A DNA stretch of 64,000 nucleotides from a virus. Its lineage: Duplodnaviria; Caudoviricetes. The notes under the pieces were generated by a model. It saw nothing but the letters and a program-made list of their open reading frames with translations, ran no database searches and was not told the origin of the DNA. Below are positions 14,397-64,000 of the stretch, one piece after another; positions within the stretch are counted from its first letter, which is position 1, and each line of letters begins with the position of its first letter. Location: positions 129,182 to 193,181 of IMG/VR virus record IMGVR_UViG_3300026549_000034; one strand, written 5' to 3'. The position numbers and the translations under genes are program-made.

Positions 14397-14418
14397 AAAC
14401 AATTATTCTTTTTATATG

Positions 14419-14447
14419 AAATGAGGATCTTAAAGATCCTCATTTTT
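14419..14447 (+). terminator. intrinsic terminator
   Basis: aaatgaggatct-taa-agatcctcattttt. Confidence 0.75.
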
Positions 14448-14481: not shown

Positions 14482-15549
14482 ATGAAAATTTTTCAAATAT
14501 TATTAAATAAAACAAAAAATAGTTCATATAGATATGCTGAAGAATTATATCTATCATTATCATCTATAGAAGATATTGATATTGACCAAAGTATAATAGT
14601 TGATAAAAGTGAATTTAATCCAGATTTGATAGATATAATTAATTCTTATGATTACGTTTTTATTCATTCAATATCAAAAGATAAAGATTTATATAACATA
14701 TTAATAAATTTTATTAAACCTAAAAAGATATTATTTATTACTCATACTATATTAAAGCAATGGCATAATGATATTAATTTATCATATATTATTCCATTAT
14801 TGCGAAATGTAAGTAAAATAGTAATTAATCCACTTGCATTAGATATAATAAATGAAATTAAGGAAAAAATATCTGATGATCAGTTTAACAAAAAATATGT
14901 AGAACTTAAATATGTTTATAATTTTTATTTGTTTAATACAATAAATAAAGATAATATCATATCAATGATATCAAATAAGGGAGTACGAACTAATTATGAT
15001 TTATTCATTAATTTATTTAAAAACAAAGAAATATTAAATAGAGATTTTATTTGGAAATTATACGGTGTAACAAAGAACATTCAAACTTATTATATTAATG
15101 ATTTATATATAAACAATAAAACACAAAAACCTTCATTAATAACTAATTTTGATACAACAGTTATTTCAAAAAATATGATAAATGTATATGGAGAAATAGA
15201 CAGAAATACATATAAAGAAGTTATAGAAAAATCATTATTTACATGCAATTTTGATAATGAATCTTATATAAGTTATAATATAATAGATATAATAGGCAAT
15301 GGATCTATTCCAATAATGTCAAAAACTGTAGCGCAAAACATAAGAATAAATCAAAAACAAACATTATATGATCTTAAATGCGGTATATTTATTAATGATA
15401 CATTTGATGAACAAGCTATAATAACTATAAATAAATTAGTACAAAGTCCTAATACATACATAAATACATTAAATAAGCATGTAAATATTTTTAAACAAAT
15501 TTTCAATAATTCAGAAACAATCAATAAATTATTACAAAATATAATATGA
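14482..15549 (+). CDS. divergent GT-B glycosyltransferase, T4 alpha-glucosyltransferase-like
   Basis: YDYVFIHS..IKPKKILFITH and YNIIDIIGNGSIPIMSK resemble recalled AGT segments DILIINS..IKP..VVYQH and YTHLELGACGTIPVFWK. Confidence 0.55.
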   Translation: MKIFQILLNKTKNSSYRYAEELYLSLSSIEDIDIDQSIIVDKSEFNPDLIDIINSYDYVFIHSISKDKDLYNILINFIKPKKILFITHTILKQWHNDINLSYIIPLLRNVSKIVINPLALDIINEIKEKISDDQFNKKYVELKYVYNFYLFNTINKDNIISMISNKGVRTNYDLFINLFKNKEILNRDFIWKLYGVTKNIQTYYINDLYINNKTQKPSLITNFDTTVISKNMINVYGEIDRNTYKEVIEKSLFTCNFDNESYISYNIIDIIGNGSIPIMSKTVAQNIRINQKQTLYDLKCGIFINDTFDEQAIITINKLVQSPNTYINTLNKHVNIFKQIFNNSETINKLLQNII

Positions 15550-16250
15550 AAAACATAAATAATTACATATCAGAGAAGCTCAATATAAAAAATATTAAAG
15601 TACATCAATATAAGTATTTTCCAAAGACAAAAGAAGAACTTAGAAAAATCTTAGAAAAAAGATTAGATGAAGACAATAATGCGGATTTGAATGATATTGA
15701 TGTTAGTGAAATAACTGATATGTCATTACTATTTAATAAGTTAGATCCACATAATATAAATATATCTGGCTGGGATGTAGGTAATGTTACTGCAATGGGT
15801 GCAATGTTTAATGGATGTGATAATTTTAATTCTGACTTAAGTAAATGGGACGTTAGTAAGGTTACTAATATGGATTCAATGTTTGCTGATTGTGGAGAAT
15901 TTAATTCTGATCTAAGTGAATGGGATGTATCTAAAGTTACAAATATGCAAGCTATGTTTACTAGATGTCATAAACTTGATACCGACTTAAATAAATGGGA
16001 TGTATCTAATGTTACTGGAATGGATTCAATATTTTATGGTTGTAATAACTTTAATTCTGACTTAAGCAATTGGAATGTATCTAATGTTACTGATATGTAT
16101 AAAATGTTTTATGATTGTAACAGCTTTAATTCTGATCTAAGTAAATGGGATGTAAGTAATGTTACTGATATGCGTAATATGTTTTTTGGATGTGATTCGC
16201 TAAAAAATAAACCAAGCTGGTACAAGAATAAAATAAAAATTAAAAAATAA
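15546..16250 (+). CDS. DUF285/BspA-like repeat protein with leader
   Basis: 25-aa repeats WDVSNVTxMxxMFxxCxxFNSDLSK; leader MKNINNYISEKLNI. Confidence 0.9.
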   Translation: MKNINNYISEKLNIKNIKVHQYKYFPKTKEELRKILEKRLDEDNNADLNDIDVSEITDMSLLFNKLDPHNINISGWDVGNVTAMGAMFNGCDNFNSDLSKWDVSKVTNMDSMFADCGEFNSDLSEWDVSKVTNMQAMFTRCHKLDTDLNKWDVSNVTGMDSIFYGCNNFNSDLSNWNVSNVTDMYKMFYDCNSFNSDLSKWDVSNVTDMRNMFFGCDSLKNKPSWYKNKIKIKK

Positions 16251-16271
16251 TATATAATATATATAAATGAT

Positions 16272-16955
16272 ATGAAAAACCTAAAAGACGTCATTATAGA
16301 GAAGCTCAATATAAAAAATATTAAAATACAATATACTTGTCATCCAAAAACAAAAGTAGAACTTCAATTAATATTGAGAGAAAGACTATCAAAAGATAAT
16401 AATGCTAATTTGAATGATATTGATGTTAGTGATATAACCGATATGTCTAATTTATTTGAAAAATTAAATCCTCATAATATAGATATATCTGAATGGAATG
16501 TATCAAATGTTATCAATATGAGTTATATGTTTTATGATTGTCAAAATTTTAACTGTGACTTAAGTAAATGGGACGTAAGTAATGTTACAAATATGATAAA
16601 TATGTTTTATGATTGCAAAGAATTTAATTCTGACTTAAGCAAATGGAATGTAAGTAATGTTAAAAAAATGAATGGTACATTTGCTGGCTGTATAAAATTT
16701 AATTCTGATCTAAGCAATTGGGATGTTAGTAATGTTAATAATATGGGTGGACTATTTGCTAGATGCCAAAATTTTAATGCAGATCTAAGTAATTGGAATG
16801 TATCTAATGTTCAAAACATGGTAAATATGTTTTATGAATGTGAAAAATTTAAAGGCAAAGGATTAGAAAAATGGAAACCAACCAAATTATTAATATATAA
16901 GAATATATTTTATAAGACTCAATTAGAAAAAAATCCTCCAAAATGGTATAAATAA
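16272..16955 (+). CDS. DUF285/BspA-like repeat protein with leader
   Basis: same repeats; leader MKNLKDVIIEKLNI. Confidence 0.9.
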   Translation: MKNLKDVIIEKLNIKNIKIQYTCHPKTKVELQLILRERLSKDNNANLNDIDVSDITDMSNLFEKLNPHNIDISEWNVSNVINMSYMFYDCQNFNCDLSKWDVSNVTNMINMFYDCKEFNSDLSKWNVSNVKKMNGTFAGCIKFNSDLSNWDVSNVNNMGGLFARCQNFNADLSNWNVSNVQNMVNMFYECEKFKGKGLEKWKPTKLLIYKNIFYKTQLEKNPPKWYK

Positions 16956-16996: not shown

Positions 16997-17029
16997 AAAG
17001 GGAATTTCTTTTGAAAGAAATTCCCTTTT
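16997..17029. terminator. bidirectional intrinsic terminator
   Basis: aaagggaatttcttt-tg-aaagaaattcccttt between convergent genes. Confidence 0.8.
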
Positions 17030-18963: not shown

Positions 18964-18965
18964 AC

Positions 18966-19289
18966 TTAACAATTAATAAATTTTTTCTTCTTTTCGAAAA
19001 TCTTAGTATAATACCATGGCTTAACATTATCAACCTTCTTAGATATTGTTCTATATGATACAACATTATTATGCTTTAATATTTGTGAATCTTTATCATT
19101 TATAACAAATATTGTAGCATTATTAATAGCATCAGTATATCCAGGAGTAAAATTAAAATCTAAATATTGATCAATTTCCCCATTGTTGTTTGTATATTCT
19201 CTTGATACTAATTGAGGTTCTACGCAAAATTGATAAAAATCATCATCATTATCAAAATATATAACATTTAAGTCATTATCTATTAACAT
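18966..19289 (-). CDS. hypothetical protein between the MoxR and VWA genes
   Basis: 107-aa ORF, same orientation as its neighbours. Confidence 0.7.
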   Translation of the reverse strand: MLIDNDLNVIYFDNDDDFYQFCVEPQLVSREYTNNNGEIDQYLDFNFTPGYTDAINNATIFVINDKDSQILKHNNVVSYRTISKKVDNVKPWYYTKIFEKKKKFINC

Positions 19290-23880: not shown

Positions 23881-25240
23881 TTTTTTGGATAAGGAATATA
23901 GAGGCTACTCGAATTACGTCATACAAAATCGAGCCTGCCCCTCATTGATTGACGGATTTAAGACGGGTGCAAGAAAGATTATGCATGCAGCTATGAAGGG
24001 TTCACTTAAAAATGGCGAGACTAAGAAGGTTACTGCATTAGCTGGTGAGACTATGACGCATTCACTTTATCAGCATGGTGACGCAAGCCTCAATGGAACA
24101 ATCATTACCTTATCACAAGAATTTGACTTCAATCTAAATCCTCTCTTTATTGATGGTCAAAATGGTTCTTTAAGATCTCAAGATGCAGCAAGTCCTCGTT
24201 ATCTTTATGTACGTCATTCTAAATATACTCCTATTTGGAAGACTGACTATGATCTTTTGGAATTTGAAGAGGAAGAAGGAGAACAAGTAGAACCTAAGTA
24301 TTATTTACCAATTATACCTGTATTACTTGCACAACGGCAAGAAGGGATGGCTCCGGGCTACAGATTCTCAAATATGTCGTATGATCCTGTAGACATTATA
24401 GATGCATGTATAACAGTTTTAAATTCAAAGAAGAAAGAAAATAAGCTTGATGGATTTGTGTTGCATCCTTATATTAAAGGGATTAAGAAAAAGAATTGGA
24501 AATATGAGACTGAAGAAAATGAAGTATCTCATTGGGTAAACTATGGAGAATTTAAATGGGATGAGAAAAGAAAAGAAATAATTATAAAAGATCTTCCTTA
24601 TGATATGGATTTTGATTCCTTTGAAAAGCTTTTAAATAAATTAGTTGAAAAGGAAGAAATTAAAGATTGGAAAAACTTATCTTCAGGTACGGACATTGAA
24701 TATCATATTGATTGTAAAAGGGGCAAATGGGCAGCTACTTTAAAAGGTAAGTTAGTAAATAAGAAAATAGAGCAAAAACTTAAATTACGTAAAGTTGTAC
24801 CTGATGATTTGCTTTGGGTTATTGATGAAAATAAGAAAGTAAAGCATTTTAGTACACCTTATGAATTAATAGAATATTTTGTAAACTTCAGATTGCTGAA
24901 ATATAACGATAGAAAGAAACGTTTAGTAAAGATTCTTGAAGAACGTCTTAAGAAGAATGATGATTTAGTTAAGTTTATTGAATTGGTTTGTAAAGGAAAA
25001 CTTAAGATTAGAAATCGTTCTAAGAAAGAAATTAAAGTAGACATGGATAGTTACAAATTACCTATGGAGTTAATTAGCACACCAATGAGTAAAGTAACTA
25101 TTGAAGAACGTGATGAATTACTTAAGCAAAATGAAGCAATGAGAAAAGAGCTTGAATATATTAAGAAAACAACAGAAAAGCAAATGTATATTAATGATCT
25201 GAATGATCTTAGAAAAGACTTAGAAAAGGATTTTAAATAA
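23840..25240 (+). CDS. type II DNA topoisomerase, breakage-reunion subunit (T4 gp52/GyrA-like)
   Basis: RACPSLIDGFKTGARK, YQHGDASL, AASPRY catalytic Tyr. Confidence 0.95.
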   Translation: MKQNQNITERTISNFLDKEYRGYSNYVIQNRACPSLIDGFKTGARKIMHAAMKGSLKNGETKKVTALAGETMTHSLYQHGDASLNGTIITLSQEFDFNLNPLFIDGQNGSLRSQDAASPRYLYVRHSKYTPIWKTDYDLLEFEEEEGEQVEPKYYLPIIPVLLAQRQEGMAPGYRFSNMSYDPVDIIDACITVLNSKKKENKLDGFVLHPYIKGIKKKNWKYETEENEVSHWVNYGEFKWDEKRKEIIIKDLPYDMDFDSFEKLLNKLVEKEEIKDWKNLSSGTDIEYHIDCKRGKWAATLKGKLVNKKIEQKLKLRKVVPDDLLWVIDENKKVKHFSTPYELIEYFVNFRLLKYNDRKKRLVKILEERLKKNDDLVKFIELVCKGKLKIRNRSKKEIKVDMDSYKLPMELISTPMSKVTIEERDELLKQNEAMRKELEYIKKTTEKQMYINDLNDLRKDLEKDFK

Positions 25241-33104: not shown

Positions 33105-33572
33105 TTATAAATAATTTATTTTATTATTATCATTTTTGAATATTTTATAAATATAATATTTACTATGCCAATGATCTATAAAAAATAAATAAAATTCATG
33201 TAAGTCATCATTATCATATGATTTTTGTTTAAATACATAAATATATAAATCTACTTCACTATTTTTATATAATCTTGAAAAATCATTAATTTTTATACTT
33301 GGATGATTAATTAATTCTGCTCCATAATTAAATAAAAATTTGTTATCATCATTATATTTTTCTAGTGGTATATATTCAAATGTATATTTATCTATTTTAT
33401 CAGTAAATAATGGACACGTACTAAATAATACATTATCAAGTTTTTCTTTTGATAATAGATTATTTAGGTTTTTATATAAATCATTTATAAATTCTTTTGA
33501 CGATAAATGCGTATTTAGTTTAATATTTTTTATATTAAGCTTCTCTATAATGATATCTTTTAAGTTTTTCAT
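33105..33572 (-). CDS. hypothetical protein with leader
   Basis: MKNLKDIIIEKLNIKNIK, nearly identical to the leader of 16272. Confidence 0.7.
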   Translation of the reverse strand: MKNLKDIIIEKLNIKNIKLNTHLSSKEFINDLYKNLNNLLSKEKLDNVLFSTCPLFTDKIDKYTFEYIPLEKYNDDNKFLFNYGAELINHPSIKINDFSRLYKNSEVDLYIYVFKQKSYDNDDLHEFYLFFIDHWHSKYYIYKIFKNDNNKINYL

Positions 33573-33577
33573 ATCCT

Positions 33578-34267
33578 TTATTTAACCTTGACGAAATTAG
33601 AACCATAATTTATATTTGAACTTTTTACTCCTCCAGTGAACCATGATGAAATGTCTATATGAAGTTTTGGACAATTTGAAAACATTTCTTCATACATATT
33701 TTTACTTTGTGCTATACTTATATTAACATCTTCAATACCACGTATACGAATTAAATTTGTACAATCAGCAAACATGTATTGACATTTTTCAACATTTTCT
33801 AAGGTTGTATCATTTAAATCAACAGATACTAATGATTTACAATTTTCAAATGTACCTACAGTATTTTTTAATTTTTCGTTATTGAATTTTGGTAATTGTA
33901 TTTTACTTAATGTTGAACAATTTTTGAACATAAAAGATATATTTTCAACATTTTTTACGTTCCATTCAGAAATATCAATATTTATAAGTTTATTTGTATT
34001 GTAGAACATTTTGGACATATTTGTAACATTGCTTACATCCCATCTTGAAATATCACCGTTGAAATTAATATCTTTAAAAATTCCACTCATATCAGTAATC
34101 TTTGAAGTATCTATATCATTAAGATTAACATTACGTCCTTCCCTTTTTATTCTATCTTCAACGATTTTTCTTAGTTCTTCATTAGTTGTTGGGAAATATT
34201 TTGGTTTATAAATATCTAATTGGCCGACATTTAACTTTTCATTTACATATGCGTTTAAGTCTTTCAT
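33578..34267 (-). CDS. DUF285/BspA-like repeat protein with leader
   Basis: LNDIDTSKITDMS, WDVSNVTNMSKMF; leader MKDLNAYVNEKLNV. Confidence 0.85.
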   Translation of the reverse strand: MKDLNAYVNEKLNVGQLDIYKPKYFPTTNEELRKIVEDRIKREGRNVNLNDIDTSKITDMSGIFKDINFNGDISRWDVSNVTNMSKMFYNTNKLINIDISEWNVKNVENISFMFKNCSTLSKIQLPKFNNEKLKNTVGTFENCKSLVSVDLNDTTLENVEKCQYMFADCTNLIRIRGIEDVNISIAQSKNMYEEMFSNCPKLHIDISSWFTGGVKSSNINYGSNFVKVK

Positions 34268-34297
34268 ATATTATGTTATATTTATATATTTTAAAGT

Positions 34298-35209
34298 TTA
34301 AGGTAATTTCTTTGGTTGTGGTTTTATAATTGAATCACAGTATACATTAGCAAGTATATCGTTATGTCTCCAATGGTATATGTTACCAACCGTTTTTAGT
34401 TTTTTACAGCCAACAAACATTCCTTTTGTGTTCATATCTTCTGTAATGTTCCAATTTGATAAGTCATCTACATATTTCAAATTGCTGCACCAAGAAAACA
34501 TAAATGACATATCTGTAACATCATTTATATCCCAAGTGTTTAATCCTTTTATTTCTTCTAGATATTTACAATCACTAAACAAACTACGTAATGATGTAAT
34601 ATTTTTAGTATTCCATCCAGTAATATCTATTTTTCGTGGTAATACTAATGCTAATTTATTGAATACATAACTTAATGAATCTAAATTAGAAACATCTATA
34701 TATGACAAATCTACAAAGTCTTTATTGTCTAAATAATCAATAGTTTTAAAAAGATATTTGACTAGATCTTCTTTTGATTTTGCTTTATATGTATATTTGT
34801 TTATTTTAATATCATTAATGTTAAGCTTCTCATTTAGACTATTTTTATCATAAATTATTTTACTATCATCATCAATAAATTTTATGCAAGATACATTTCT
34901 GTAAGTTGTATGCCGTATAGTTTTATCAAATATATTTGCTATATATGATTTCTTGTATGACATAAATAATGATCGTAGTCCATTTATTCCAAAATTAAAT
35001 ATAAGGTTATCATCTATATCATAAGTTGACCATTTTGAATCATCTTTTTGTATTTTGTATATATCTACATCAACATCGGTATTTCCACATATTTGTATTG
35101 TAAATGGTAGAACAACACCAGTATTATTAGAAAACCAATATATGTTATTTTGTAAATTTATTTTTTTGACATTTAATTTTTCAGTTATGTATGCATCAAT
35201 GTTCTTCAT
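34298..35209 (-). CDS. two-domain protein: leader, unknown domain, internal LNEKLNI, DUF285-like repeats
   Basis: [14 protein letters not shown]; internal SLNEKLNINDIK; WDINDVTDMSFMF. Confidence 0.8.
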   Translation of the reverse strand: MKNIDAYITEKLNVKKINLQNNIYWFSNNTGVVLPFTIQICGNTDVDVDIYKIQKDDSKWSTYDIDDNLIFNFGINGLRSLFMSYKKSYIANIFDKTIRHTTYRNVSCIKFIDDDSKIIYDKNSLNEKLNINDIKINKYTYKAKSKEDLVKYLFKTIDYLDNKDFVDLSYIDVSNLDSLSYVFNKLALVLPRKIDITGWNTKNITSLRSLFSDCKYLEEIKGLNTWDINDVTDMSFMFSWCSNLKYVDDLSNWNITEDMNTKGMFVGCKKLKTVGNIYHWRHNDILANVYCDSIIKPQPKKLP

Positions 35210-56435: not shown

Positions 56436-59400
56436 GTGAAATCTATTATTGAATTTATTAATGAAGATCGCCGCAAAAAGCAAGAACAAGAAATCCATAT
56501 AGAAGGTAATAGTATTCTTGATAAAATAATGAATGATAAAGAAACTAATATAGATGAGTTTGTTAAGGAATTTGTAAGACCTAATGGACCAACTATATAT
56601 GCATTTACCACAGATAAAGTTGATTCTGCAGTTAAAGTTGGATATACAGACCAACATCCTGAAGCTCGTATAGCACAATGGAAAGAGATATATGGTAAAG
56701 AAGAAGGTGAAGTTGTTACCTTAGGTTGGTGGAGTTCAGAAGAATTTAATCAAGCTGGTGAACGTGTATTTTTCTGGGATCATGCTATTCATAAGAAACT
56801 TAGAGATAAAGGATATAAACAACTAGAAAGAGATGAGTTTATGGCTACTTTAACAGAAAAGGGTAAGCAATTAGTTGATATTCATTATTCTCGTGAATTC
56901 TTTTCTAAATATAAGAAATTATTGCAAGGACAATTAAGTGATGAAGATAAAGAAGAATTGTCTGCACAATTACTTGAAGATCTTATTAAACAAATGAAAG
57001 CAAATATCCATGCTGGTACTGCCGATTTTAAGTTATATTCATTTGATGAAGAAGGTAAGACAAGTAAAAAACAAGCGGATAAGATATGGGGAGCTCCTGA
57101 TACATATCCTAATACTGATCTTCAAAAGGAAGCAATTAAAAACGGTGTCAAAGCTATTGATGAAGGTAAAAAGAACATATTGATGGCTGCTGTTATGAGA
57201 TTTGGTAAGACTCATGCTTCTTATGAAATTGTTAAACAAGCAGGATTAAAACGTGTTATAGTATGTTCTGCCAAAGCTGATGTTCGTACTGCTTGGAGAG
57301 AAGATATTAATCATGAGCATTTCTATAAAGATTTTGTATTCATCGAAGTTCTTGGTCCTAATAATTGTGATATGACTTATTGTAAAGGTGATAAACTTGT
57401 TACAGAACATGGTACACCTAATATAGAGAATCTTGAAAAGGCTGGTAAGACAATTATATATTTCTTTACTTTACATGATTTAGGTGGTTCTGTTAAGGAA
57501 TTAAAAGAAAAGCATAAAGGCATATTTGATAAAGAATTTGATATGATGATTGTTGATGAAACACACTATGGGTCTCATGCAAATACTTTTGGACAAGCAA
57601 CAGGATTAGGCAAAAATAAGATTAAAGATGGCGAAGATGATGAAGATAATGCAGCAATTGAAGAAGAACAAAAAATTGCACAAGAATCCGCTGAAACATT
57701 AAAGAAGCTAAATATAAAATATAAACGAGTTCTTCAAGTTTCTGGAACACCTTATTACATATTAGCATCAAATGAAATGATTGCCGAAGATGCTGAAATT
57801 ATATCTAAAGTTTCTTATACTGATATGTTGAATGCTCGTGATAAATATGAAAAGGAACATAAAGGAGAAGATCCAAGCACTTCACCTTATTTCGGTATAC
57901 CTACTTTACATAAGATTGGATTAAGATTAAATAAAGAATGCCGTAAAGTAATGCAAAATGCTGGTGTGACTGATTCTATGACTGAATTATTCAAAGTTGA
58001 TGGACAGAAGTTTGTACATGAAAAGGCTGTAGAGGGATTAATGAAAAGTATATTTGGTGATGGTAAAGGTTCGTTAGCATTCTTGAAAAACAAATCAGTA
58101 GAAGGAAATAAAGTTTGCAAACATACTTTGATAGTTCTTCCTCGTGTTAAGGCATGTAGAGTTATGAAAGACTTGTTGACTAAATTCATATCAGAAAAAA
58201 ATCGTAAAGTATTCTGTATTGTCAATAATTGGGGAGGCACCGCTGATGTTAAAGATGTAGATGACTTAAATAACCAATTAGAAACACTTGATAGCAAAGG
58301 TATAGGAAGTATTATATTGACAGTAAACAGATTCTTGACGGGTGTTTCTATGCCTTGTGTAGATAGTATGATATATCTTAAGAATGCAAGTAGCCCACAA
58401 GAATATGACCAAAATATATTCAGACTTTGTACAAGAAGGGTTAAGAAAGTCAAAGATCCAGATGATGAAAGTAGAAGCAAGAAGGTAAATATGAAAGATA
58501 ATGTTTACTTGATAGACTTTAACATGACAAATATGTTTAATATGATTGCTAATTCTGCTCGTATGAAAGCTGCTGCAGAAGGTAATCCAACAACTGAACG
58601 TATCAAAGAACTTATGGAAGATGATGTGAAAGCTGTACCAATATTTGCAGAAGACAAAGCAAGTTCTGAAATACTTGGTAAGATGCACAAGATTGATTCC
58701 AAAGATATGATGATACTATATTCAAATTATAATAAGAACAAGAGTATTGCGGATATAGTAAGTGATGAAATTGACCTGTTTGATAATTTATTTGTTGATG
58801 ATACATTCCAAAAGATCATAGCAGGAATTGATATAGAAGGTGACAATAGTAAGATTAATTTGGGAAATGGCTCAGAAGAAGGTGAAGAATTAGATAATTT
58901 ACCAAGTGGAAGCGAAGTACCAAGTAGTAAAGATGACAAGAAAATGAAATCATTACTAGATAAACTTAAGGAAGCTAACATAACTAAAAATGAAAAGAAA
59001 CAGCTTGAAGATTTGACTAAGAAGAAATTCAAAGCTATTACCAAGAACTTATTATATTGTGACTTATGCTTAGATGAACCTTGCGTAGATATAGACGGTA
59101 TATTAAAGAAAGCTAAAGAGGATAAAGACTTTAAGAAAATGCTACATGAATTCAAAATTAATGAGAAAGATATAGAAAAAGTTTATAATGCTATGTCTAC
59201 TAATTTTAAACAAGCATATAATTCATTATTGACTCGTATGGCTTTACTTGCACAAGATACATCAAAGAGCGGTTATGATAAATTCAGTAAAGCATTAGAA
59301 GGACTTGGAAGACTTGGTAAAAATGAAGTAGTGACACCTCCCGAAATTGTTGAAAAAATGATTAATAAACTTTCAAAAGAAGACTATGATAAAGCAGAAA

Positions 59401-60533
59401 GCATATTAATTGTTAATGAGAAACAAGCAGAATTCACAATGGGCTTAATAAATAAATTTGGAAAGAAAATTGCTAAGAAAATTAAGATAGTTGCAAGTAG
59501 TGAAGTTGGTAAACACTTAAGTAGGAAAATGTTAAAAAGTTCACTTGGAAAAAACTATATTAAATCAATAATATTAAATATAGGTGACGTAGATGGCAAT
59601 GGCTATTACGATGTCAATGATTTTTTGAAGATGGATAATAAAGAAATTTTAAAAGAGAATAATAATAAACGTTTTGATATTTTACTTTCTAACCCACCGT
59701 ATGCAAGAAATTTACATATGAAATTTTTAGAAAAATATGTTGATTTGGCCGATAAAATAATAAGTATACAACCATTATCTTGGTTACAAAATATATTTAG
59801 TGATCAAAATAAAAATTCTAAAATAAATAAAATTCCACTTACAGATGTAGAGTATGTTGGAAATATTAAAAATGCATTTAAATATGATTCTCCGGGTCAC
59901 GCAACTTATGATACTGGCATTTATGTAATAGATAATAATGCAAAAACAAATAATGAAGAATTATTGTATAAATTTATTGATTTATATCCTGGAGAACGTA
60001 TTGATCCTAAACTTATAAAATCAATTAAATATAAAATATTAAATTATTGTAAAGAACATAATTTAGAAGATAATATAAAATATGGAAATGTTGATGAAAA
60101 TACAAAATATACAATAATTATGCCTACTTTATTAGGAAATGCTGGTTGTAAAAATGATAGATATTTTTGGAAAACTTCAAAACGATGGGGTAGAATATTT
60201 TATAAAGGAAAATCTGAAGGGAAATTTATGGGAGAATATAAAAAGAAATTATCTAATGTTAAAAATTATACTAATTTCCCTTATTTAGAGTTTAATACTG
60301 AAGATGAATGTAAAAATTGGATTGATTCACAAGATTCAGATATTATGAGATTTATTTCAATTCTTAATTACGTCGATTCGAATCGACGCTGTAAATTTGT
60401 CCCTTATATGGAAGATTATAGTAAAGTATGGACAGATGATATGTTAGCTAAATTTTTTAATATAACGAAAGATGAAAGAGAACAGATTCATCATTATATA
60501 ACTTTATTTGATAAAAAATTTAATAAAAAATGA
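56436..60533 (+). CDS. GIY-YIG-like nuclease, SF2 helicase and N6-adenine-MTase/TRD multidomain protein (Type ISP/IIG-like) with leader
   Basis: TIYAF..VKVGYT..EARIAQW; AVMRFGKT; IVDETH; SGTP; QNIFRLCT; NEVVTP; FDILLSNPPY; GTG start MKSIIEFINE. Confidence 0.8.
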   Translation: MKSIIEFINEDRRKKQEQEIHIEGNSILDKIMNDKETNIDEFVKEFVRPNGPTIYAFTTDKVDSAVKVGYTDQHPEARIAQWKEIYGKEEGEVVTLGWWSSEEFNQAGERVFFWDHAIHKKLRDKGYKQLERDEFMATLTEKGKQLVDIHYSREFFSKYKKLLQGQLSDEDKEELSAQLLEDLIKQMKANIHAGTADFKLYSFDEEGKTSKKQADKIWGAPDTYPNTDLQKEAIKNGVKAIDEGKKNILMAAVMRFGKTHASYEIVKQAGLKRVIVCSAKADVRTAWREDINHEHFYKDFVFIEVLGPNNCDMTYCKGDKLVTEHGTPNIENLEKAGKTIIYFFTLHDLGGSVKELKEKHKGIFDKEFDMMIVDETHYGSHANTFGQATGLGKNKIKDGEDDEDNAAIEEEQKIAQESAETLKKLNIKYKRVLQVSGTPYYILASNEMIAEDAEIISKVSYTDMLNARDKYEKEHKGEDPSTSPYFGIPTLHKIGLRLNKECRKVMQNAGVTDSMTELFKVDGQKFVHEKAVEGLMKSIFGDGKGSLAFLKNKSVEGNKVCKHTLIVLPRVKACRVMKDLLTKFISEKNRKVFCIVNNWGGTADVKDVDDLNNQLETLDSKGIGSIILTVNRFLTGVSMPCVDSMIYLKNASSPQEYDQNIFRLCTRRVKKVKDPDDESRSKKVNMKDNVYLIDFNMTNMFNMIANSARMKAAAEGNPTTERIKELMEDDVKAVPIFAEDKASSEILGKMHKIDSKDMMILYSNYNKNKSIADIVSDEIDLFDNLFVDDTFQKIIAGIDIEGDNSKINLGNGSEEGEELDNLPSGSEVPSSKDDKKMKSLLDKLKEANITKNEKKQLEDLTKKKFKAITKNLLYCDLCLDEPCVDIDGILKKAKEDKDFKKMLHEFKINEKDIEKVYNAMSTNFKQAYNSLLTRMALLAQDTSKSGYDKFSKALEGLGRLGKNEVVTPPEIVEKMINKLSKEDYDKAESILIVNEKQAEFTMGLINKFGKKIAKKIKIVASSEVGKHLSRKMLKSSLGKNYIKSIILNIGDVDGNGYYDVNDFLKMDNKEILKENNNKRFDILLSNPPYARNLHMKFLEKYVDLADKIISIQPLSWLQNIFSDQNKNSKINKIPLTDVEYVGNIKNAFKYDSPGHATYDTGIYVIDNNAKTNNEELLYKFIDLYPGERIDPKLIKSIKYKILNYCKEHNLEDNIKYGNVDENTKYTIIMPTLLGNAGCKNDRYFWKTSKRWGRIFYKGKSEGKFMGEYKKKLSNVKNYTNFPYLEFNTEDECKNWIDSQDSDIMRFISILNYVDSNRRCKFVPYMEDYSKVWTDDMLAKFFNITKDEREQIHHYITLFDKKFNKK

Positions 60534-60731: not shown

Positions 60732-61025
60732 ATGAATATACTTAAATCAAAATATATTTATAATAAATTAAGACAGGATTATTTGTGTAAAAATCCCATA
60801 TTAATATTGTATAATGATGGTCATTCAGAAGGATATGATAAATATTATACATATGAAGAATTTAAACAATTTAAAAATTCAGAAATCATTAATCTATTTA
60901 AACAAAAATATTTTTATGATACAAATTTATTTAGTTTGTGGAGAAAAGCTAAAAATCATAAATGGACAATTGCCGGATTTATTATATCAATTATATTAGC
61001 AATATACTATGGTAATAAAATATGA
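60732..61025 (+). CDS. hypothetical protein with C-terminal TM segment
   Basis: WTIAGFIISIILAIYYG. Confidence 0.55.
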   Translation: MNILKSKYIYNKLRQDYLCKNPILILYNDGHSEGYDKYYTYEEFKQFKNSEIINLFKQKYFYDTNLFSLWRKAKNHKWTIAGFIISIILAIYYGNKI

Positions 61026-61522
61026 ATTTAACAGATTTTAATATAGAGCAATTTTTAGACTTAAGTAATTACGCAACAGATGAACGTGTATCTCGTCGAA
61101 AGAATTCAGAAATAAATTCTCAAGAATTCTTCACTCCTTATTCAATAGTTAAGCGTATGTGTGATAAGGTTTCTGAAGCTGATTGGGCAGATCCTACAAA
61201 AGTATTTTGTGAACCATGTTTCGGAAATGGGCAGTTTGTCATTTATATAATTTGGAATAGACTTCAGCATGGTATACATTGGAAAACTACATTAGAAACG
61301 CTATGGGGGGTTGAACTAATGCAAGATAATGTAGCGGAATGTAAGGATAGAATTTGTGAAATGCTGACAAATATTTGTGAAGATTTTAATGAAGATAAAG
61401 CAAGACTCATTATGGATTCACAATTGATCTGTCATGACTTTTTCACATGGAATTTTGAAGAATGGCGTCCGTATACTGAAGATGAAATTAAACAAAACAA
61501 AAAGAAGAAAAACAAAAAATAA
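61022..61522 (+). CDS. SAM-binding half of an N6-adenine methyltransferase
   Basis: QEFFTP, EPCFGNGQF, WGVEL, CHDFF; no NPPY. Confidence 0.8.
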   Translation: MNLTDFNIEQFLDLSNYATDERVSRRKNSEINSQEFFTPYSIVKRMCDKVSEADWADPTKVFCEPCFGNGQFVIYIIWNRLQHGIHWKTTLETLWGVELMQDNVAECKDRICEMLTNICEDFNEDKARLIMDSQLICHDFFTWNFEEWRPYTEDEIKQNKKKKNKK

Positions 61523-61544: not shown

Positions 61545-61573
61545 AAAAAAAGGAAGCATCGAGGCTTCCTTTT
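61545..61573. terminator. bidirectional terminator
   Basis: aaaaggaagc-atcgag-gcttcctttt between convergent genes. Confidence 0.8.
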
Positions 61574-61577
61574 GTAG

Positions 61578-62036
61578 TTATTTATTTTCATACCATTTTG
61601 GCTTATCTATAGACTTACAATCAAAGAACATATCATACATTTCTTCAACATTAGATACATCCCATTTATTTAAGTCAGTATCAAGTTTATGACATCCAGT
61701 AAACATTGCTTGCATATTTGTAACTTTAGATACGTCCAATTCACTTAGATTACAATTGAAGTTTTCACAAAAGAAGAACATAAATGATGTATTAGTAACA
61801 TTGCTTACGTCCCATTTAGATATGTTTATGTCATGAGGATCTAACTTAGCAAATAGATGATTCATGTCGGTTATTTCGCTAACATTAATATCGTTTAAGT
61901 CAGCATTCTTATTTTCTTTTAAACGTTCCTCCAATATCTGTTTAAGTTCATCTTTTGTTTTTGGACAACAGCTATATTGACGTTTGATATCTTTTAAGTT
62001 AAGCTTCTCAAATATGTAGTTATGTAAATCTTTCAT
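61578..62036 (-). CDS. DUF285/BspA-like repeat protein with leader
   Basis: MKDLHNYIFEKLNL; WDVSNV repeats. Confidence 0.9.
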   Translation of the reverse strand: MKDLHNYIFEKLNLKDIKRQYSCCPKTKDELKQILEERLKENKNADLNDINVSEITDMNHLFAKLDPHDINISKWDVSNVTNTSFMFFFCENFNCNLSELDVSKVTNMQAMFTGCHKLDTDLNKWDVSNVEEMYDMFFDCKSIDKPKWYENK

Positions 62037-62038
62037 AT

Positions 62039-62572
62039 TTATTCTTTATACCACTTTGGCTTATTTTTTAATGAATCACATCTAAAGAACATGTTATGCA
62101 TATCAGTAACCTTACTAACATCCCATTTATTTAGATCGGAATTAAAATTTTTACATTCCCAAAACATAGCTCTCATATCGGCAACATTACTAACATCCCA
62201 TTTGCTTAGATCTGCATTAAAGTTCACGCAAACAGAAAACGTATACTGCATACTAGTAACCTTACTAACATTCCATTTACTTAGATCAGAATTAAAGTTA
62301 TCGCAACTAAAAAACATGCCATTCATATTAGTAACATTACTAACGTCCCATCCGGAGATATCTATGTTATGAGGATCTAACTTAGAAAATAGATTAGACA
62401 TATCGGTTATTTTACTAACACCAATATCATTTAGATCAGCATCCTTATTTTCTTTTAAACGTTTTTCCAATATATCTCTAAGTTCATCTCTTGTCTTAGG
62501 GAAATAATTATATTGACTTTTTATATCTTTTATATTAAGCTTCTCAAATATGTAGTTATTTAGGTTCTTCAT
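62039..62572 (-). CDS. DUF285/BspA-like repeat protein with leader
   Basis: MKNLNNYIFEKLNI; repeats. Confidence 0.9.
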   Translation of the reverse strand: MKNLNNYIFEKLNIKDIKSQYNYFPKTRDELRDILEKRLKENKDADLNDIGVSKITDMSNLFSKLDPHNIDISGWDVSNVTNMNGMFFSCDNFNSDLSKWNVSKVTSMQYTFSVCVNFNADLSKWDVSNVADMRAMFWECKNFNSDLNKWDVSKVTDMHNMFFRCDSLKNKPKWYKE

Positions 62573-62575
62573 TTT

Positions 62576-63109
62576 TTATTCTTTGTACCAGCTTGGCTTA
62601 TTTTTTAATGAATTGCACTCCCAAAACATATCATGCATATCAGTAACATTGCCTACGTCCCAACTATTTAAATCACTATCAAATTTTTTACAGCCATCAA
62701 ACATTTTATACATATCAGTAACCTTACTAACATTCCATTTGCTTAAATCAGAATTAAATTTTTCGCAAAGTAGAAACATGCGATTCATATTAGTAACATT
62801 AGATACGTCCCATTTGTTTAGATTACAAGCAAAGTTTACACATGAAGCAAACATAAATTTCATATCTTTAACAGCGCTTACATTCCATTCAGATATATCT
62901 ATGTCATGAGGATCTAAATCAACAAATAAGAAAGACATATCAGTTATTTTACTAACATCTATATCATTTAGATCAGCATCCTTATTTTCTTTTAAACGTT
63001 TTTCCAATATACTTTTAAGTTCATCTCTTGTCTTTGGACAACAGCTATATTGATGTTTAATATCTTTTATGTTAAGCTTCTCAAATATGTAGTTATATAA
63101 ATCTTTCAT
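62576..63109 (-). CDS. DUF285/BspA-like repeat protein with leader
   Basis: MKDLYNYIFEKLNI; repeats. Confidence 0.9.
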   Translation of the reverse strand: MKDLYNYIFEKLNIKDIKHQYSCCPKTRDELKSILEKRLKENKDADLNDIDVSKITDMSFLFVDLDPHDIDISEWNVSAVKDMKFMFASCVNFACNLNKWDVSNVTNMNRMFLLCEKFNSDLSKWNVSKVTDMYKMFDGCKKFDSDLNSWDVGNVTDMHDMFWECNSLKNKPSWYKE

Positions 63110-63111
63110 AT

Positions 63112-63642
63112 TTATTCTTTATACCAACTTGGTTTATTTTTTAGTGAATTGCATCTATAAAATATTCTATTCATATCATTAATATTACTAACATTCCAAT
63201 TGTTTAGATCACTATTAAATTTTTTACAATATGCAAACATATTATACATATCCTTAACATTACTTACATCCCATTTACTTAGATCAGAATTAAAATTTGT
63301 ACAACCAGCAAACATTTTATACATATCTTTAACCTTACTAACATTCCATTTACTTAGATCAGATGTAAAATTCTCACAATATATAAACATACAGTTCATA
63401 TTAGTAACATTGCTTACGTCCCATCCAGATATATCTATGTCGTGTGGATCTAATTCATAAAACAGATGATCCATATCTTTTATTTCGCTAACATCAATAT
63501 CATTTAGGTTAGCACTCTCATTTTCACTTAGACGTTCTTTTAATATTTGTATAAGTTCTTTTTTTGTCTTAGGAAAATATACATAATCTTTGATATTTCT
63601 TACATTAAGCTTCTCAAATATGTAGTTATGTAAATCTTTCAT
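63112..63642 (-). CDS. DUF285/BspA-like repeat protein with leader
   Basis: ATG at 63642 gives MKDLHNYIFEKLNV. Confidence 0.9.
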   Translation of the reverse strand: MKDLHNYIFEKLNVRNIKDYVYFPKTKKELIQILKERLSENESANLNDIDVSEIKDMDHLFYELDPHDIDISGWDVSNVTNMNCMFIYCENFTSDLSKWNVSKVKDMYKMFAGCTNFNSDLSKWDVSNVKDMYNMFAYCKKFNSDLNNWNVSNINDMNRIFYRCNSLKNKPSWYKE

Positions 63643-63647
63643 ATTTA

Positions 63648-64000
63648 TTATTTGTACCAGCTTGGAATATTTTTTAGTGATGAGCAACCATCAAACATAT
63701 GACGCATAGTTTTAACATTACTTACATTCCAACTACTTAGATCGCAGTCAAAATTTTTGCAATTAATAAACATATCATGCATACTAATAACATTAGATAC
63801 ATCCCAATTATTTAAGTCAGAATTAAAAATTTTACAACCATCAAACATTTTATACATATCAACAACTTTAGATACATTCCATTTGCTTAAATCAGAATTA
63901 AATTTTTCGCAAAGTAGAAACATGCGATTCATATTAGTAACATTAGATACGTCCCATTTGTTTAGATTACAAGCAAAGTTTACACATGAAGCAAACATAA
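63648..64000 (-). CDS. DUF285/BspA-like repeat protein (5' part outside the window)
   Basis: repeats and PSWYK C-terminus; the frame runs off the window edge. Confidence 0.85.
   Translation of the reverse strand, partial: MFASCVNFACNLNKWDVSNVTNMNRMFLLCEKFNSDLSKWNVSKVVDMYKMFDGCKIFNSDLNNWDVSNVISMHDMFINCKNFDCDLSSWNVSNVKTMRHMFDGCSSLKNIPSWYK

What the first reader, a model, noticed from the sequence alone, without database searches (positions are those of the whole stretch)
61578..64000. Recombining library of tagged DUF285/BspA-like solenoids with hypervariable repeat positions
Seen in sequence: nine paralogs in three loci (15546-16955, 33578-35209, 61578-64000 and continuing). Most share the leader, a PKTxxEL...LNDIDVS cap, 25-aa repeats W(D/N)VS(N/K)VxxMxxMFxxCxxFNSDLSK with constant scaffold and variable x positions, and a PxWY end. 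Repeat number varies. None has a signal peptide or anchor, unlike the bacterial surface proteins that usually carry this repeat. There is direct evidence of module exchange: 62730-62856 and 63874-64000 are identical over 127 bp, and 15924-16013 matches the reverse complement of 61647-61736 with only 4 mismatches in 90 bp although the loci are ~46 kb apart. Inference: this is a repertoire of binding proteins diversified by gene conversion and repeat shuffling (phage RecA is encoded beside one locus), possibly injected to neutralise variable host defence proteins.
Basis: partly seen in the sequence, partly recalled or inferred. Interest (0 to 1): 0.85.

Follow-up and report, generated by a model that had tools for sequence, protein, structure and literature searches.

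The report
Capsid-tag-bearing DUF285 repeat-protein gene family
An uncultured giant T4-like rumen phage carries at least 13 small leucine-rich-repeat (DUF285) genes that start with a short tag like the one phage T4 uses to load proteins into its head, and one copy has demonstrably been overwritten by a neighbour, so this is probably a slowly reshuffled set of virion-carried binding proteins whose targets are unknown.

Summary
Nine DUF285 (PF03382) genes lie at the stated coordinates. They have an exact 25-residue repeat, a constant hydrophobic scaffold, variable exposed positions and no membrane signal.

The 127-bp identity is real but truncated by the contig end. Another assembly shows a 212-bp exact tract. 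A 5%-diverged sister strain with a complete 10-gene array shows that copy 5 overwrote part of copy 3, which is gene conversion.

"Recombining library" is nevertheless overstated:
- The paralogs are old (synonymous difference about 0.5).
- The array is identical in three other samples.
- Gene order and repeat number are conserved between strains.
- Variable sites evolve at dN/dS about 1, which is not clearly positive selection.

The leader is conserved at the residues (4, 7, 8, 10) that matter in the T4 capsid-targeting sequence. It also sits on dozens of unrelated ORFs. Related phages encode the gp21-type protease.

New here: a homologue with the same architecture in the cultured Campylobacter phage IBB_35 was found by mass spectrometry in purified virions. 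Injection and anti-defence roles are untested.

The repeat family (PARCEL/DUF285) and the tag principle are known, but their combination is not in the papers I searched. This scan has already flagged the same combination in several other phage genomes.

The parts
61548..61573 (.). Bidirectional intrinsic terminator that closes the E array against the convergent methyltransferase-like gene
   Evidence: 10-bp stem with 4 G-C pairs and T tails on both strands.
61578..62036 (-). E1, DUF285 gene, 152 aa, 3 repeat units, last gene of the tandem array
   Evidence: PF03382 E 1.4e-28. The orthologue R1 in strain L094 is 91.6% identical at nucleotide level.
62039..62572 (-). E2, DUF285 gene, 177 aa, 4 units. 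This is the protein that was modelled.
   Evidence: PF03382 E 2.4e-59. AlphaFold pLDDT is 92: residues 1-20 are flexible, residues 28-41 form a helix, and an LRR solenoid follows. A 13-mismatch patch in unit 3 relative to strain L094 changes only variable positions.
62576..63109 (-). E3, DUF285 gene, 177 aa, 4 units, the recipient of a gene-conversion tract
   Evidence: PF03382 E 2.5e-47. Against its orthologue R3 it is about 96-97% identical outside gene positions 229-345 and about 60% identical inside them.
62730..62941 (-). 212-bp tract in E3 that is identical to E5 (the conversion tract).
   Evidence: Exact run of 212 bp in the E3/E5 alignment, using L074 to complete E5. The block is 116/117 identical to R5 of the sister strain, and it shares the three substitutions that separate E5 from R5.
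63112..63642 (-). E4, DUF285 gene, 176 aa, 4 units
   Evidence: PF03382 E 4.5e-47. The exact protein occurs on three other contigs. It is 97% identical to R4.
63648..64000 (-). E5, the 3' 351 bp of a 201-aa, 5-unit DUF285 gene cut by the contig end, and the donor of the tract
   Evidence: PF03382 E 2.2e-38. The full gene was recovered from L074. Upstream of it lies the end of a further family gene. The sister strain has 10 genes in this array.
15546..16250 (+). C1, DUF285 gene, 234 aa, 6 units. Its start overlaps the stop of the upstream 355-aa gene.
   Evidence: PF03382 E 1.1e-71. Coordinates.
15924..16013 (+). Unit 3 of C1, which is 86/90 identical to unit 2 of E1 (61647-61736, minus strand)
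   Evidence: It is the second most similar of 861 unit pairs. The identity has a sharp 3' boundary.
16272..16955 (+). C2, DUF285 gene, 227 aa, 5 units plus a divergent tail, followed by a terminator at 16997-17028
   Evidence: PF03382 E 1.7e-60. Terminator.
33578..34267 (-). D1, a divergent DUF285 gene, 229 aa, with the leader
   Evidence: PF03382 E 6.1e-29. Its 90% cluster has 23 members and is syntenic beside RecA in related contigs.
34298..35209 (-). D2, 303 aa: the leader, an unrelated N-terminal part, a second internal leader remnant, then DUF285 repeats. Its start abuts the RecA stop.
   Evidence: PF03382 E 5.2e-16 over residues 178-283. Sequence.
33105..33572 (-). 155-aa ORF with the same 18-residue leader but no DUF285 body
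   Evidence: No Pfam or PHROG hit. The leader is visible. This shows that the tag is modular.

Best explanation
These genes are a multigene family of small cytoplasmically made leucine-rich-repeat solenoids of the DUF285/PARCEL type, in a T4-related giant phage.

Each protein has three parts:
1. A flexible 10-residue leader, M-K-x-[LI]-x-x-[YF]-I-x-E.
2. A conserved helix-containing cap.
3. Three to six 25-residue repeats with a fixed hydrophobic core and free exposed positions.

The likely mechanism (inferred) is this. The leader works like the T4 capsid-targeting sequence. It docks the protein on the prohead core, and a gp21-type protease cuts after the Glu at position 10. The solenoid then stays in the virion, probably inside the head, and enters the cell with the DNA, where it binds host molecules.

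The family diversifies (shown) by tandem duplication, by substitutions at exposed repeat positions at about the neutral rate, and by occasional short-tract gene conversion between copies. The binding targets are unknown. An anti-defence role is a guess.
For: Fold and family:
- PF03382 hits on all nine ORFs.
- High-confidence LRR model. Best PDB match is 4fs7 (Z 10.8, rmsd 2.8 over 133 residues). BFVD matches are BspA-type LRRs.

The leader is a separate module:
- Residues 1-20 are low-confidence and detached in the model.
- The same leader sits on non-DUF285 ORFs.
- Its codons vary synonymously, so the conservation is at protein level.
- The relative G001 has paralogues both with and without it.

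Register:
- 50 of 327 ORFs have [ILVMF]-x-E with the Glu at residue 10. Every other offset has 3-12.
- In G002 the figure is 27 of 112.
- 96 of the 120 best database homologues start this way, with K2 97%, L/I4 97%, Y/F7 88% and I8 96%.

Match to T4:
- The T4 tag is a decapeptide cut after its Glu-10 (PMC8442874).
- Residues 4 and 7 govern targeting and residues 8 and 10 govern processing (PMC9026906).
- T4 internal proteins share only this tag (PMC3012670).

Machinery in relatives:
- Related phages with tagged DUF285 genes encode Peptidase_S77 (gp21) and Gp23 capsid protein.
- The protease ORFs themselves have [VI]-x-E ending at residue 10, and tagged arrays abut the head module.

Experimental anchor:
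- Gene 1-30 of Campylobacter phage vB_CcoM-IBB_35 (24670-25212, 21,402 Da) is the same architecture: a leader ending I-Y-E at residue 9, then cap and repeats. BLASTP against E2 gives 2e-29 over residues 3-176.
- It is listed among the 38 proteins found by MS/MS in purified virions (PMC3322345).
- Two DUF285 proteins are also in Aureococcus virus particles (PMC7507832).

Diversification:
- E5-to-E3 conversion tract.
- C1/E1 shared unit.
- Between strains, dN/dS is 1.07 at variable positions against 0.17 at scaffold positions, 0.22 in the N-terminal module and 0.05 in the flanking helicase.
Against: - No protease, capsid or scaffold gene is on this contig, which is 68% complete. The tag-protease link therefore rests on relatives that share about 42-44% protein identity.
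- No cleavage or packaging has been shown for any member. The IBB_35 detection has only 7.2% coverage. It does not say whether the protein is inside the head or whether its N-terminus is cut.
- The IBB_35 gene lies near baseplate genes (gp5-like, PAAR), not head genes.
- The tag sits on more than 10% of ORFs, including enzyme-like proteins. That is far more cargo than T4 carries.
- The C and D loci are joined to a DNA-modification gene set and to RecA (start/stop overlaps). In T4 such genes are early functions.
- The proteins have pI 4.8-8.6, unlike the basic T4 internal proteins.
- dN/dS of about 1 fits relaxed constraint as well as it fits selection for new specificities.
Confidence: 0.45

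Rival explanations
1. They are external virion decorations or adhesins. The conserved N-terminal 70 residues would dock the protein on the capsid, tail or baseplate. The variable solenoid would bind host-cell or environmental surfaces, as with BspA-type surface proteins or the variable receptor-binding modules of other phages.
For: - A homologue is a virion protein, and its gene lies three genes from the gp5-like and PAAR baseplate genes.
- The N-terminal module is under purifying selection (dN/dS 0.22) while the solenoid surface varies. That is the usual layout of anchor plus binding domain.
- Many cultured jumbo phages carry very large DUF285 proteins annotated as surface proteins.
Against: - The first 10-18 residues are shared with dozens of unrelated small proteins, some enzyme-like, which a docking anchor does not explain.
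- The leader is predicted to be flexible and detached rather than part of a folded anchor.
- The conserved leader positions coincide with those needed for T4 head targeting and cleavage.
Confidence: 0.2
2. They are cytoplasmic host-takeover or anti-defence binders that are never packaged. The shared leader would serve another purpose, such as efficient translation start, recognition by a chaperone, or regulated turnover.
For: - Two loci are translationally joined to early-type genes: the DNA-modification unit and RecA.
- The tag is on too many genes for an ordinary head cargo.
- G001 keeps leaderless paralogues that presumably act in the cell.
- The proteins have mixed pI.
Against: - The homologue with the same architecture was detected in purified virions.
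- Tagged arrays sit beside the head module on the same strand in G002 and G001.
- Conservation is at protein level and position-specific at residues 4, 7, 8 and 10, not a general A-rich start region.
Confidence: 0.2
3. They are a selfish or near-neutral expansion of a mobile repeat-coding element (PARCEL). The copies would persist as a reservoir without a specific role for each one.
For: - PARCEL ORFs without membrane signals were proposed to be reservoirs of variants spread by horizontal transfer and intragenomic shuffling (PMC2996958).
- Exposed positions evolve at dN/dS of about 1.
- Copy number varies widely between relatives: 93 PF03382 matches in G001 against 6 in G002, which is only a 74.6-kb, 26%-complete fragment.
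Against: - All copies are intact ORFs in compact operons with 2-5-nt gaps.
- Scaffold, cap and leader are under clear purifying selection (dN/dS 0.17-0.22).
- Orthologous copies, their order and their repeat numbers are retained between strains.
- The palindromic DNA signature of PARCELs is not detectable here.
Confidence: 0.1

Closest known systems
PARCEL / DUF285 (PF03382; 'bacterial surface protein 26-residue repeat', BspA-like LRR) repeat proteins, Roske et al. 2010 (PMC2996958)
   Same: - 25-residue tandem repeat in variable number.
- Conserved hydrophobic positions and variable hydrophilic ones.
- Open frames on the opposite strand.
- Members that lack membrane signals.
- Spread by horizontal transfer and intragenomic shuffling.
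- Strong HMM match.
   Different: - Here the proteins are small (150-300 aa) and phage-encoded.
- They carry an N-terminal T4-like tag plus a conserved helical cap instead of a lipoprotein or transmembrane signal.
- The DNA dyad symmetry that gives PARCELs their name is not significant here (34/75 matches against 36 +/- 2 in shuffles).
Phage T4 internal proteins IPI/IPII/IPIII and Alt, with the 10-residue capsid-targeting sequence cut by the gp21 prohead protease
   Same: - A 10-residue leader starting M-K.
- Hydrophobic or aromatic residues at 4 and 7, I at 8 and E at 10.
- Unrelated bodies behind a shared tag.
- Genes in plastic loci.
- Relatives encode the gp21-type protease and gp23-type capsid protein.
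   Different: - No sequence homology of the bodies.
- The bodies are LRR solenoids of mixed charge rather than small basic proteins.
- The tag is on dozens of genes, not a handful.
- A conserved stretch follows the Glu (E-K-L-N-I-K type).
- Cleavage and packaging are not shown.
Gene 1-30 product of Campylobacter phage vB_CcoM-IBB_35 (also CPt10 gp076, CP21_043, CP20), T4-like Firehammervirus
   Same: - The same three-part architecture: leader ending hydrophobic-x-E, a P-K-T-K..E-L helix and D-I-D-T-S cap, then DUF285 repeats.
- 35% identity over residues 3-176.
- Found in purified virions by MS/MS.
   Different: - A single copy per genome rather than an array.
- The leader is 9 rather than 10 residues.
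- It has never been discussed in the literature beyond 'conserved hypothetical protein'.
DUF285 paralogue expansions in Aureococcus anophagefferens virus and other giant eukaryotic viruses
   Same: - Large multigene DUF285 families in a virus genome.
- Two members were detected in particles (PMC7507832).
- They are the best structural matches in BFVD.
   Different: - They belong to a eukaryotic virus of a different realm.
- The proteins are larger and often fused to other domains.
- No T4-type leader is known for them.
Lamprey variable lymphocyte receptors (LRR repertoires assembled by gene-conversion-like copying)
   Same: An LRR scaffold with variable exposed residues, and copying of repeat modules between genes.
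   Different: This is an analogy only:
- Here the events are rare, germline-type conversions.
- Repeat number is stable between strains.
- There is no evidence of programmed assembly.
- The structural match is weak (Foldseek E about 0.3).

Membership tests
DUF285 / PF03382 (PARCEL, BspA-like LRR) | Match to the Pfam HMM above its gathering score | tested here: met
   All nine ORFs score 58.9-238.6 bits against a cut-off of 25. The contig gives 20 matches.
DUF285 / PF03382 (PARCEL, BspA-like LRR) | Tandem 25-residue repeat with conserved hydrophobic and variable hydrophilic positions, in variable number | tested here: met
   42 units with spacing of exactly 25 residues, except in one divergent gene. 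See the entropy profile. There are 3-6 units per gene.
DUF285 / PF03382 (PARCEL, BspA-like LRR) | Dyad symmetry of the repeat-coding DNA | tested here: not met
   The consensus unit against its cyclic reverse complement gives 34/75 matches. Shuffles give 36.2 +/- 2.3. Long antisense open frames are present. The PARCEL authors note that the symmetry can be eroded.
DUF285 / PF03382 (PARCEL, BspA-like LRR) | LRR-type solenoid fold | tested here: met
   Model pLDDT 92. All top PDB matches are LRR proteins, led by 4fs7 at Z 10.8. BFVD BspA-type LRRs match at E down to 4e-12.
T4-type capsid-targeted (CTS) internal/ejected proteins | N-terminal roughly 10-residue leader with targeting residues at 4 and 7 and the processing motif (L/I)-x-E at 8-10 | tested here: met
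   set against the T4 data in PMC9026906 and PMC8442874.
T4-type capsid-targeted (CTS) internal/ejected proteins | A gp21-type (Peptidase_S77) prohead protease and a gp23-type capsid in the same phage | tested here: inconclusive
   Neither was found on this 68%-complete contig. Both are present in three related phages that carry DUF285 genes (G003's are large proteins whose leaders were not checked).
T4-type capsid-targeted (CTS) internal/ejected proteins | Presence of the protein in the mature virion | tested here: inconclusive
   Not testable for this uncultured phage. A 35%-identical homologue with the same architecture is in the published virion proteome of Campylobacter phage IBB_35.
T4-type capsid-targeted (CTS) internal/ejected proteins | Cleavage of the leader after Glu by the prohead protease, and ejection into the host | not testable with these tools
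   This needs N-terminal peptide mapping and infection experiments.
Bacterial BspA-type surface proteins / Mollicute DUF285 lipoproteins | Signal peptide, lipobox or membrane anchor | tested here: not met
   No hydrophobic stretch: the maximum 19-residue Kyte-Doolittle mean is 0.16-0.99, and the N-termini are hydrophilic.

The most novel reading that the evidence does not exclude
A clade of giant T4-like phages of gut, rumen and mouth uses a T4-type capsid-loading tag as a general delivery address. It loads, among dozens of cargoes, a germline repertoire of LRR binders into the head. Gene conversion between copies makes new binding surfaces. The phage would then inject a diversifiable panel of inhibitors against variable host immunity proteins, a viral counterpart of LRR-based recognition repertoires.
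Probability: 0.15. Interest if true: 0.85.

Novelty: new variant of a known kind. Interest (0 to 1): 0.62.

Why it matters
If the tag really loads these proteins into the head, this phage lineage delivers far more pre-made protein into its host than T4 does, and far more varied protein. That cargo would include a whole family of customisable binding scaffolds. It would open a route to finding new anti-defence proteins and their bacterial targets. It would also supply a natural delivery tag and LRR scaffold for engineering.

The idea is directly testable in cultured Campylobacter phages that carry a single copy. Even on the cautious reading, the data give a clean, polarised example of gene conversion reshaping a repeat protein in an uncultured phage population.

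Tried and rejected
- **Assembly artefact for the 127-bp identity: rejected.** The junction is reproduced at 100% identity in three other assemblies (L074, L075, L076). L074 crosses the contig end. The contig, and a 199.5-kb contig from another sample, simply break inside the repeat.
- **Pervasive concerted evolution: rejected.** Synonymous difference between N-terminal modules is 0.36-0.66.
- **Nucleotide-level mobile cassette as the source of the shared leader: rejected.** The codons differ synonymously and the upstream regions are unrelated.
- **PARCEL dyad symmetry: not found**.
- **Head genes on the contig itself: none found.** The searches were for PF03420 and PF07068.
- **Sequence and fold searches.** Megablast of the neighbouring helicase against the phage records gave no match. 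Foldseek against PDB gave nothing at E <= 0.001. PHROGs gave only families of unknown function.
- **Promoter scan: uninformative.** The sigma-70 scan found 12 sites where 31 were expected from shuffles. The 180 bp upstream of the complete array in L094 show no obvious T4 late-promoter box by eye.
- **Leader enrichment in Campylobacter phage IBB_35: weak.** Eleven ORFs have hydrophobic-x-E ending at residue 9, against about 5 at other offsets. Five of the eleven are virion proteins.
- **Literature.** No paper in the searched library holds the leader-extension motifs. The jumbo-phage comparative review does not mention LRR, BspA or capsid targeting.
- **Larger ENA contigs (392 kb, 199.5 kb).** These could not be searched for head genes because the records are not held.
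- **Mapping variable residues onto one face of the model.** This was not possible because no coordinates are returned.
Full report
**Context**

The window is the last 64 kb of a 193,181-bp IMG/VR viral contig, which is linear and 68% complete by CheckV. GC content is about 26-27%. Window position 64000 is the contig end.

About 53 ORFs have homologues in G001, a complete 223-kb phage with terminal repeats, at a median 42% identity. A 74.6-kb fragment, G002 (25.7% GC), is a similarly distant relative. G001, G002 and a 340-kb phage, G003, all encode a T4-type prohead protease (Peptidase_S77) and a Gp23-type capsid protein. This contig has neither, presumably because the head module lies in the missing third. 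The lineage is therefore a T4-related giant phage. Related contigs come from rumen metagenome assemblies.

**The observation**

All nine ORFs are present and match Pfam DUF285 well above threshold. The rest of the contig holds four more, giving 13 genes at six loci.

I parsed 42 repeat units. The spacing is exactly 25 residues in all canonical genes.
- Positions 1, 3, 4, 6, 9, 12, 13 and 16 are almost invariant.
- Positions 7, 8, 10, 11, 14, 15, 17 and 18 have entropies of 2.1-3.4 bits.

No protein has a hydrophobic segment, and pI ranges from 4.8 to 8.6.

An AlphaFold model of the 177-residue E2, built on 57 aligned sequences, has mean pLDDT 92.
- Residues 1-20 are low-confidence: a short helix at 4-11, then disorder.
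- Residues 28-41 form a helix.
- The rest is a solenoid.

An exhaustive structural comparison returns only LRR proteins, led by a Bacteroides LRR protein (4fs7, Z 10.8, rmsd 2.8 A over 133 residues). Among viral models, the BspA-type LRRs of Aureococcus virus, Megaviridae and several jumbo phages match.

These repeat properties are those published for PARCELs (PMC2996958). The repeat itself is therefore a known kind. The one PARCEL feature I could test and did not find is the DNA dyad symmetry.

**The identities**

The 127-bp identity is exact, but it ends at the contig end. I looked up the exact E4 protein in other assemblies and found three short contigs from three other samples. They are 100% identical to the window over 1.0-1.2 kb.

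One of them, L074, runs 265 bp past the contig end. It completes E5 (201 residues, 5 units) and shows the end of yet another family gene upstream. With it, the exact E3/E5 identity is 212 bp (gene positions 169-380). The flanks are about 90% and 85% identical.

A 199.5-kb contig from another sample is 100% identical over 11.3 kb and also ends inside E3. A third sample differs by 1 base in 3.7 kb. The tract is therefore real, and it is the reason assemblies break there.

**Direction of the exchange**

A sister strain (L094, 24.8 kb, and L095) has the array fully assembled. It holds ten tandem genes, the last five orthologous to E5-E1 in the same order. The flanking helicase is 94.6% identical and the array 91.7%.

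- E3 is about 96-97% identical to its orthologue R3, except at gene positions 229-345, where identity drops to about 60%.
- That block of E3 matches R5 at 116 of 117 bases.
- Across the 212-bp tract, E3 carries the same three substitutions that distinguish E5 from R5.

The simplest reading is a conversion from E5 into E3 in this phage's lineage after it split from the sister strain.

E2 differs from R2 by a 13-mismatch patch confined to the variable codons of one unit. The best candidate donors are only 83-87% identical, so that case stays open.

The C1/E1 shared unit (86/90) is confirmed. It is the second most similar of 861 unit pairs, in genes whose N-terminal modules differ at 64% of synonymous sites.

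**How dynamic is the family?**

Less than "recombining library" suggests.
- Synonymous differences between the N-terminal modules of paralogues are 0.36-0.66. They are lowest within the E array, so the copies are old and are not being homogenised.
- Between the two strains (dS about 0.19), gene order is kept. Repeat numbers are kept apart from 1-2-residue indels.
- Between strains, dN/dS is 0.05 for the helicase, 0.22 for the leader-plus-cap module, 0.17 for scaffold positions and 1.07 for variable positions. However, 22 of the 26 amino-acid changes at variable positions lie in the E3 tract and the E2 patch.
- A paralogue-based estimate gives 1.06-1.23 at the variable positions and 0.06-0.11 at scaffold positions. 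This estimate is circular, because the sites were chosen for being variable.

The data therefore show a strongly constrained scaffold and an exposed surface that is free to change, mostly by patches. They do not demonstrate positive selection.

**The leader**

It is not a feature of this family alone.
- In this contig, 50 of 327 ORFs of at least 60 residues have [ILVMF]-x-E with the Glu at residue 10. Every other offset has 3-12. Thirty-seven fit a strict M-K pattern, including proteins unrelated to DUF285.
- G002 shows the same: 27 of 112 ORFs.
- The leader codons vary synonymously and the upstream DNA is unrelated. The conservation is therefore at peptide level.
- Of the 120 best database homologues of E2 (out of 5,007 with E <= 1e-5), 96 begin this way, with K2 97%, L/I at 4 97%, Y/F at 7 88% and I at 8 96%.

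The T4 capsid-targeting sequence is a decapeptide starting M-K, with aromatic residues at 4 and 7, I at 8 and E at 10. It is cut once after that Glu (PMC8442874). Suppressor analysis placed targeting at residues 4 and 7 and processing at residues 8 and 10 (PMC9026906). T4 internal proteins are otherwise unrelated anti-restriction proteins that share only this tag (PMC3012670).

In relatives:
- The protease ORFs of G001 and G002 themselves carry [VI]-x-E ending at residue 10.
- Arrays of tagged ORFs lie next to the protease and capsid genes, on the same strand.
- G001 carries both DUF285 paralogues with a 9-residue version of the leader and paralogues that start just after it. This shows that the leader is an add-on to a complete domain.

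**An experimental anchor**

Among 50,697 phage records, only the T4-like Campylobacter phages (Firehammervirus) have a hit that also covers the N-terminal module. Their single 178-180-residue protein has a leader ending I-Y-E at residue 9, the same helix and cap, and DUF285 repeats. BLASTP against E2 gives 2e-29 over residues 3-176.

In the genome-and-proteome paper on vB_CcoM-IBB_35 (PMC3322345), this is gene 1-30, at coordinates 24670-25212 with a mass of 21,402 Da. That mass is exactly what I compute from the sequence. The protein is one of the 38 identified by ESI-MS/MS in purified particles, at 7.2% coverage. Two DUF285 proteins are also in Aureococcus virus particles (PMC7507832).

This makes virion association likely for the architecture. 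It does not tell head interior from surface, and it says nothing about cleavage. The Campylobacter gene lies near baseplate genes.

**Points against the capsid-loading reading**

- No head genes are on this contig.
- The number of tagged genes is very large.
- C1 overlaps the stop of a gene that ends a DNA-modification unit, bounded by terminators at 14418-14446 and 16997-17028. D2 abuts RecA. By analogy with T4, these are early functions.
- The proteins are not basic.

**Verdict**

- The solenoid family and the tag are real.
- Exchange between copies is shown, but it is occasional.
- Diversifying selection is not shown.
- Injection and anti-defence function remain hypotheses.

The repeat family and the tag principle are each known. 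Their combination, in a multigene array, is not described in the papers I could search. Earlier notes of this scan reached the same reading on this genome and on several other phage genomes. I treated those notes as leads only.

Noticed in passing
whole contig G000 (e.g. window 1049, 5019c, 20638c, 29252, 33572c, 39269, 49633; genome 22003, 62487c, 101595c, 133637c, 168450): About 37-50 ORFs, more than 10% of the genes, start with the same M-K-x-[LI]-x-x-[YF]-I-x-E leader. Most are unrelated to DUF285 and some are enzyme-like. A subset also shares the next 8 residues (E-K-L-N-I-K-N-I-K type).
   Followed up: partly
window 34298-35209 (-): D2 carries the leader at its N-terminus and a second, internal leader remnant just before its cap. 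It looks like an upstream tagged ORF fused to a DUF285 gene. The orthologue in a 392-kb rumen scaffold is 339 residues and is followed by extra ORFs that are absent here.
   Followed up: partly
L094:3094-8710 (sister strain), beyond window 64000: The complete array in a strain about 5% diverged has ten tandem DUF285 genes (201, 178, 226, 201, 152, 202, 176, 177, 177 and 154 residues). This contig therefore probably lacks five or more further copies.
   Followed up: yes
G001 (loci L062-L073), e.g. 216488-223076 and 186300-191028: A complete 223-kb relative has 93 PF03382 matches, roughly 50 genes, including arrays at both genome ends and next to the prohead protease. About half of these genes lack the leader.
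   Followed up: partly
window 62091-62372, 62583-62909, 63200-63460, 63757-63999 (+): Long open frames (81-108 residues) run antisense to the DUF285 genes and encode their own periodic pattern. This is a property reported for PARCEL coding regions. There is no evidence that they are genes.
   Followed up: partly
window 56436-60533 (+) and 61022-61522 (+): A 1,365-residue protein (ResIII helicase region on its orthologue; weak PHROG DNA-methyltransferase hit) and a separate 166-residue methyltransferase-like ORF lie just before the array. The large gene evolves under strong constraint (dN/dS 0.05 between strains).
   Followed up: no
window 17062-18972 (-): A 636-residue ORF next to C2 has a long low-complexity middle region rich in Ser/Asn/Gly/Gln and K-E-A-K-D-A-type repeats. 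It has no PHROG hit.
   Followed up: no
upstream of most leader-bearing genes: The translation starts lack a recognisable Shine-Dalgarno motif and sit in A/T-only context. The host may therefore not rely on Shine-Dalgarno pairing.
   Followed up: no
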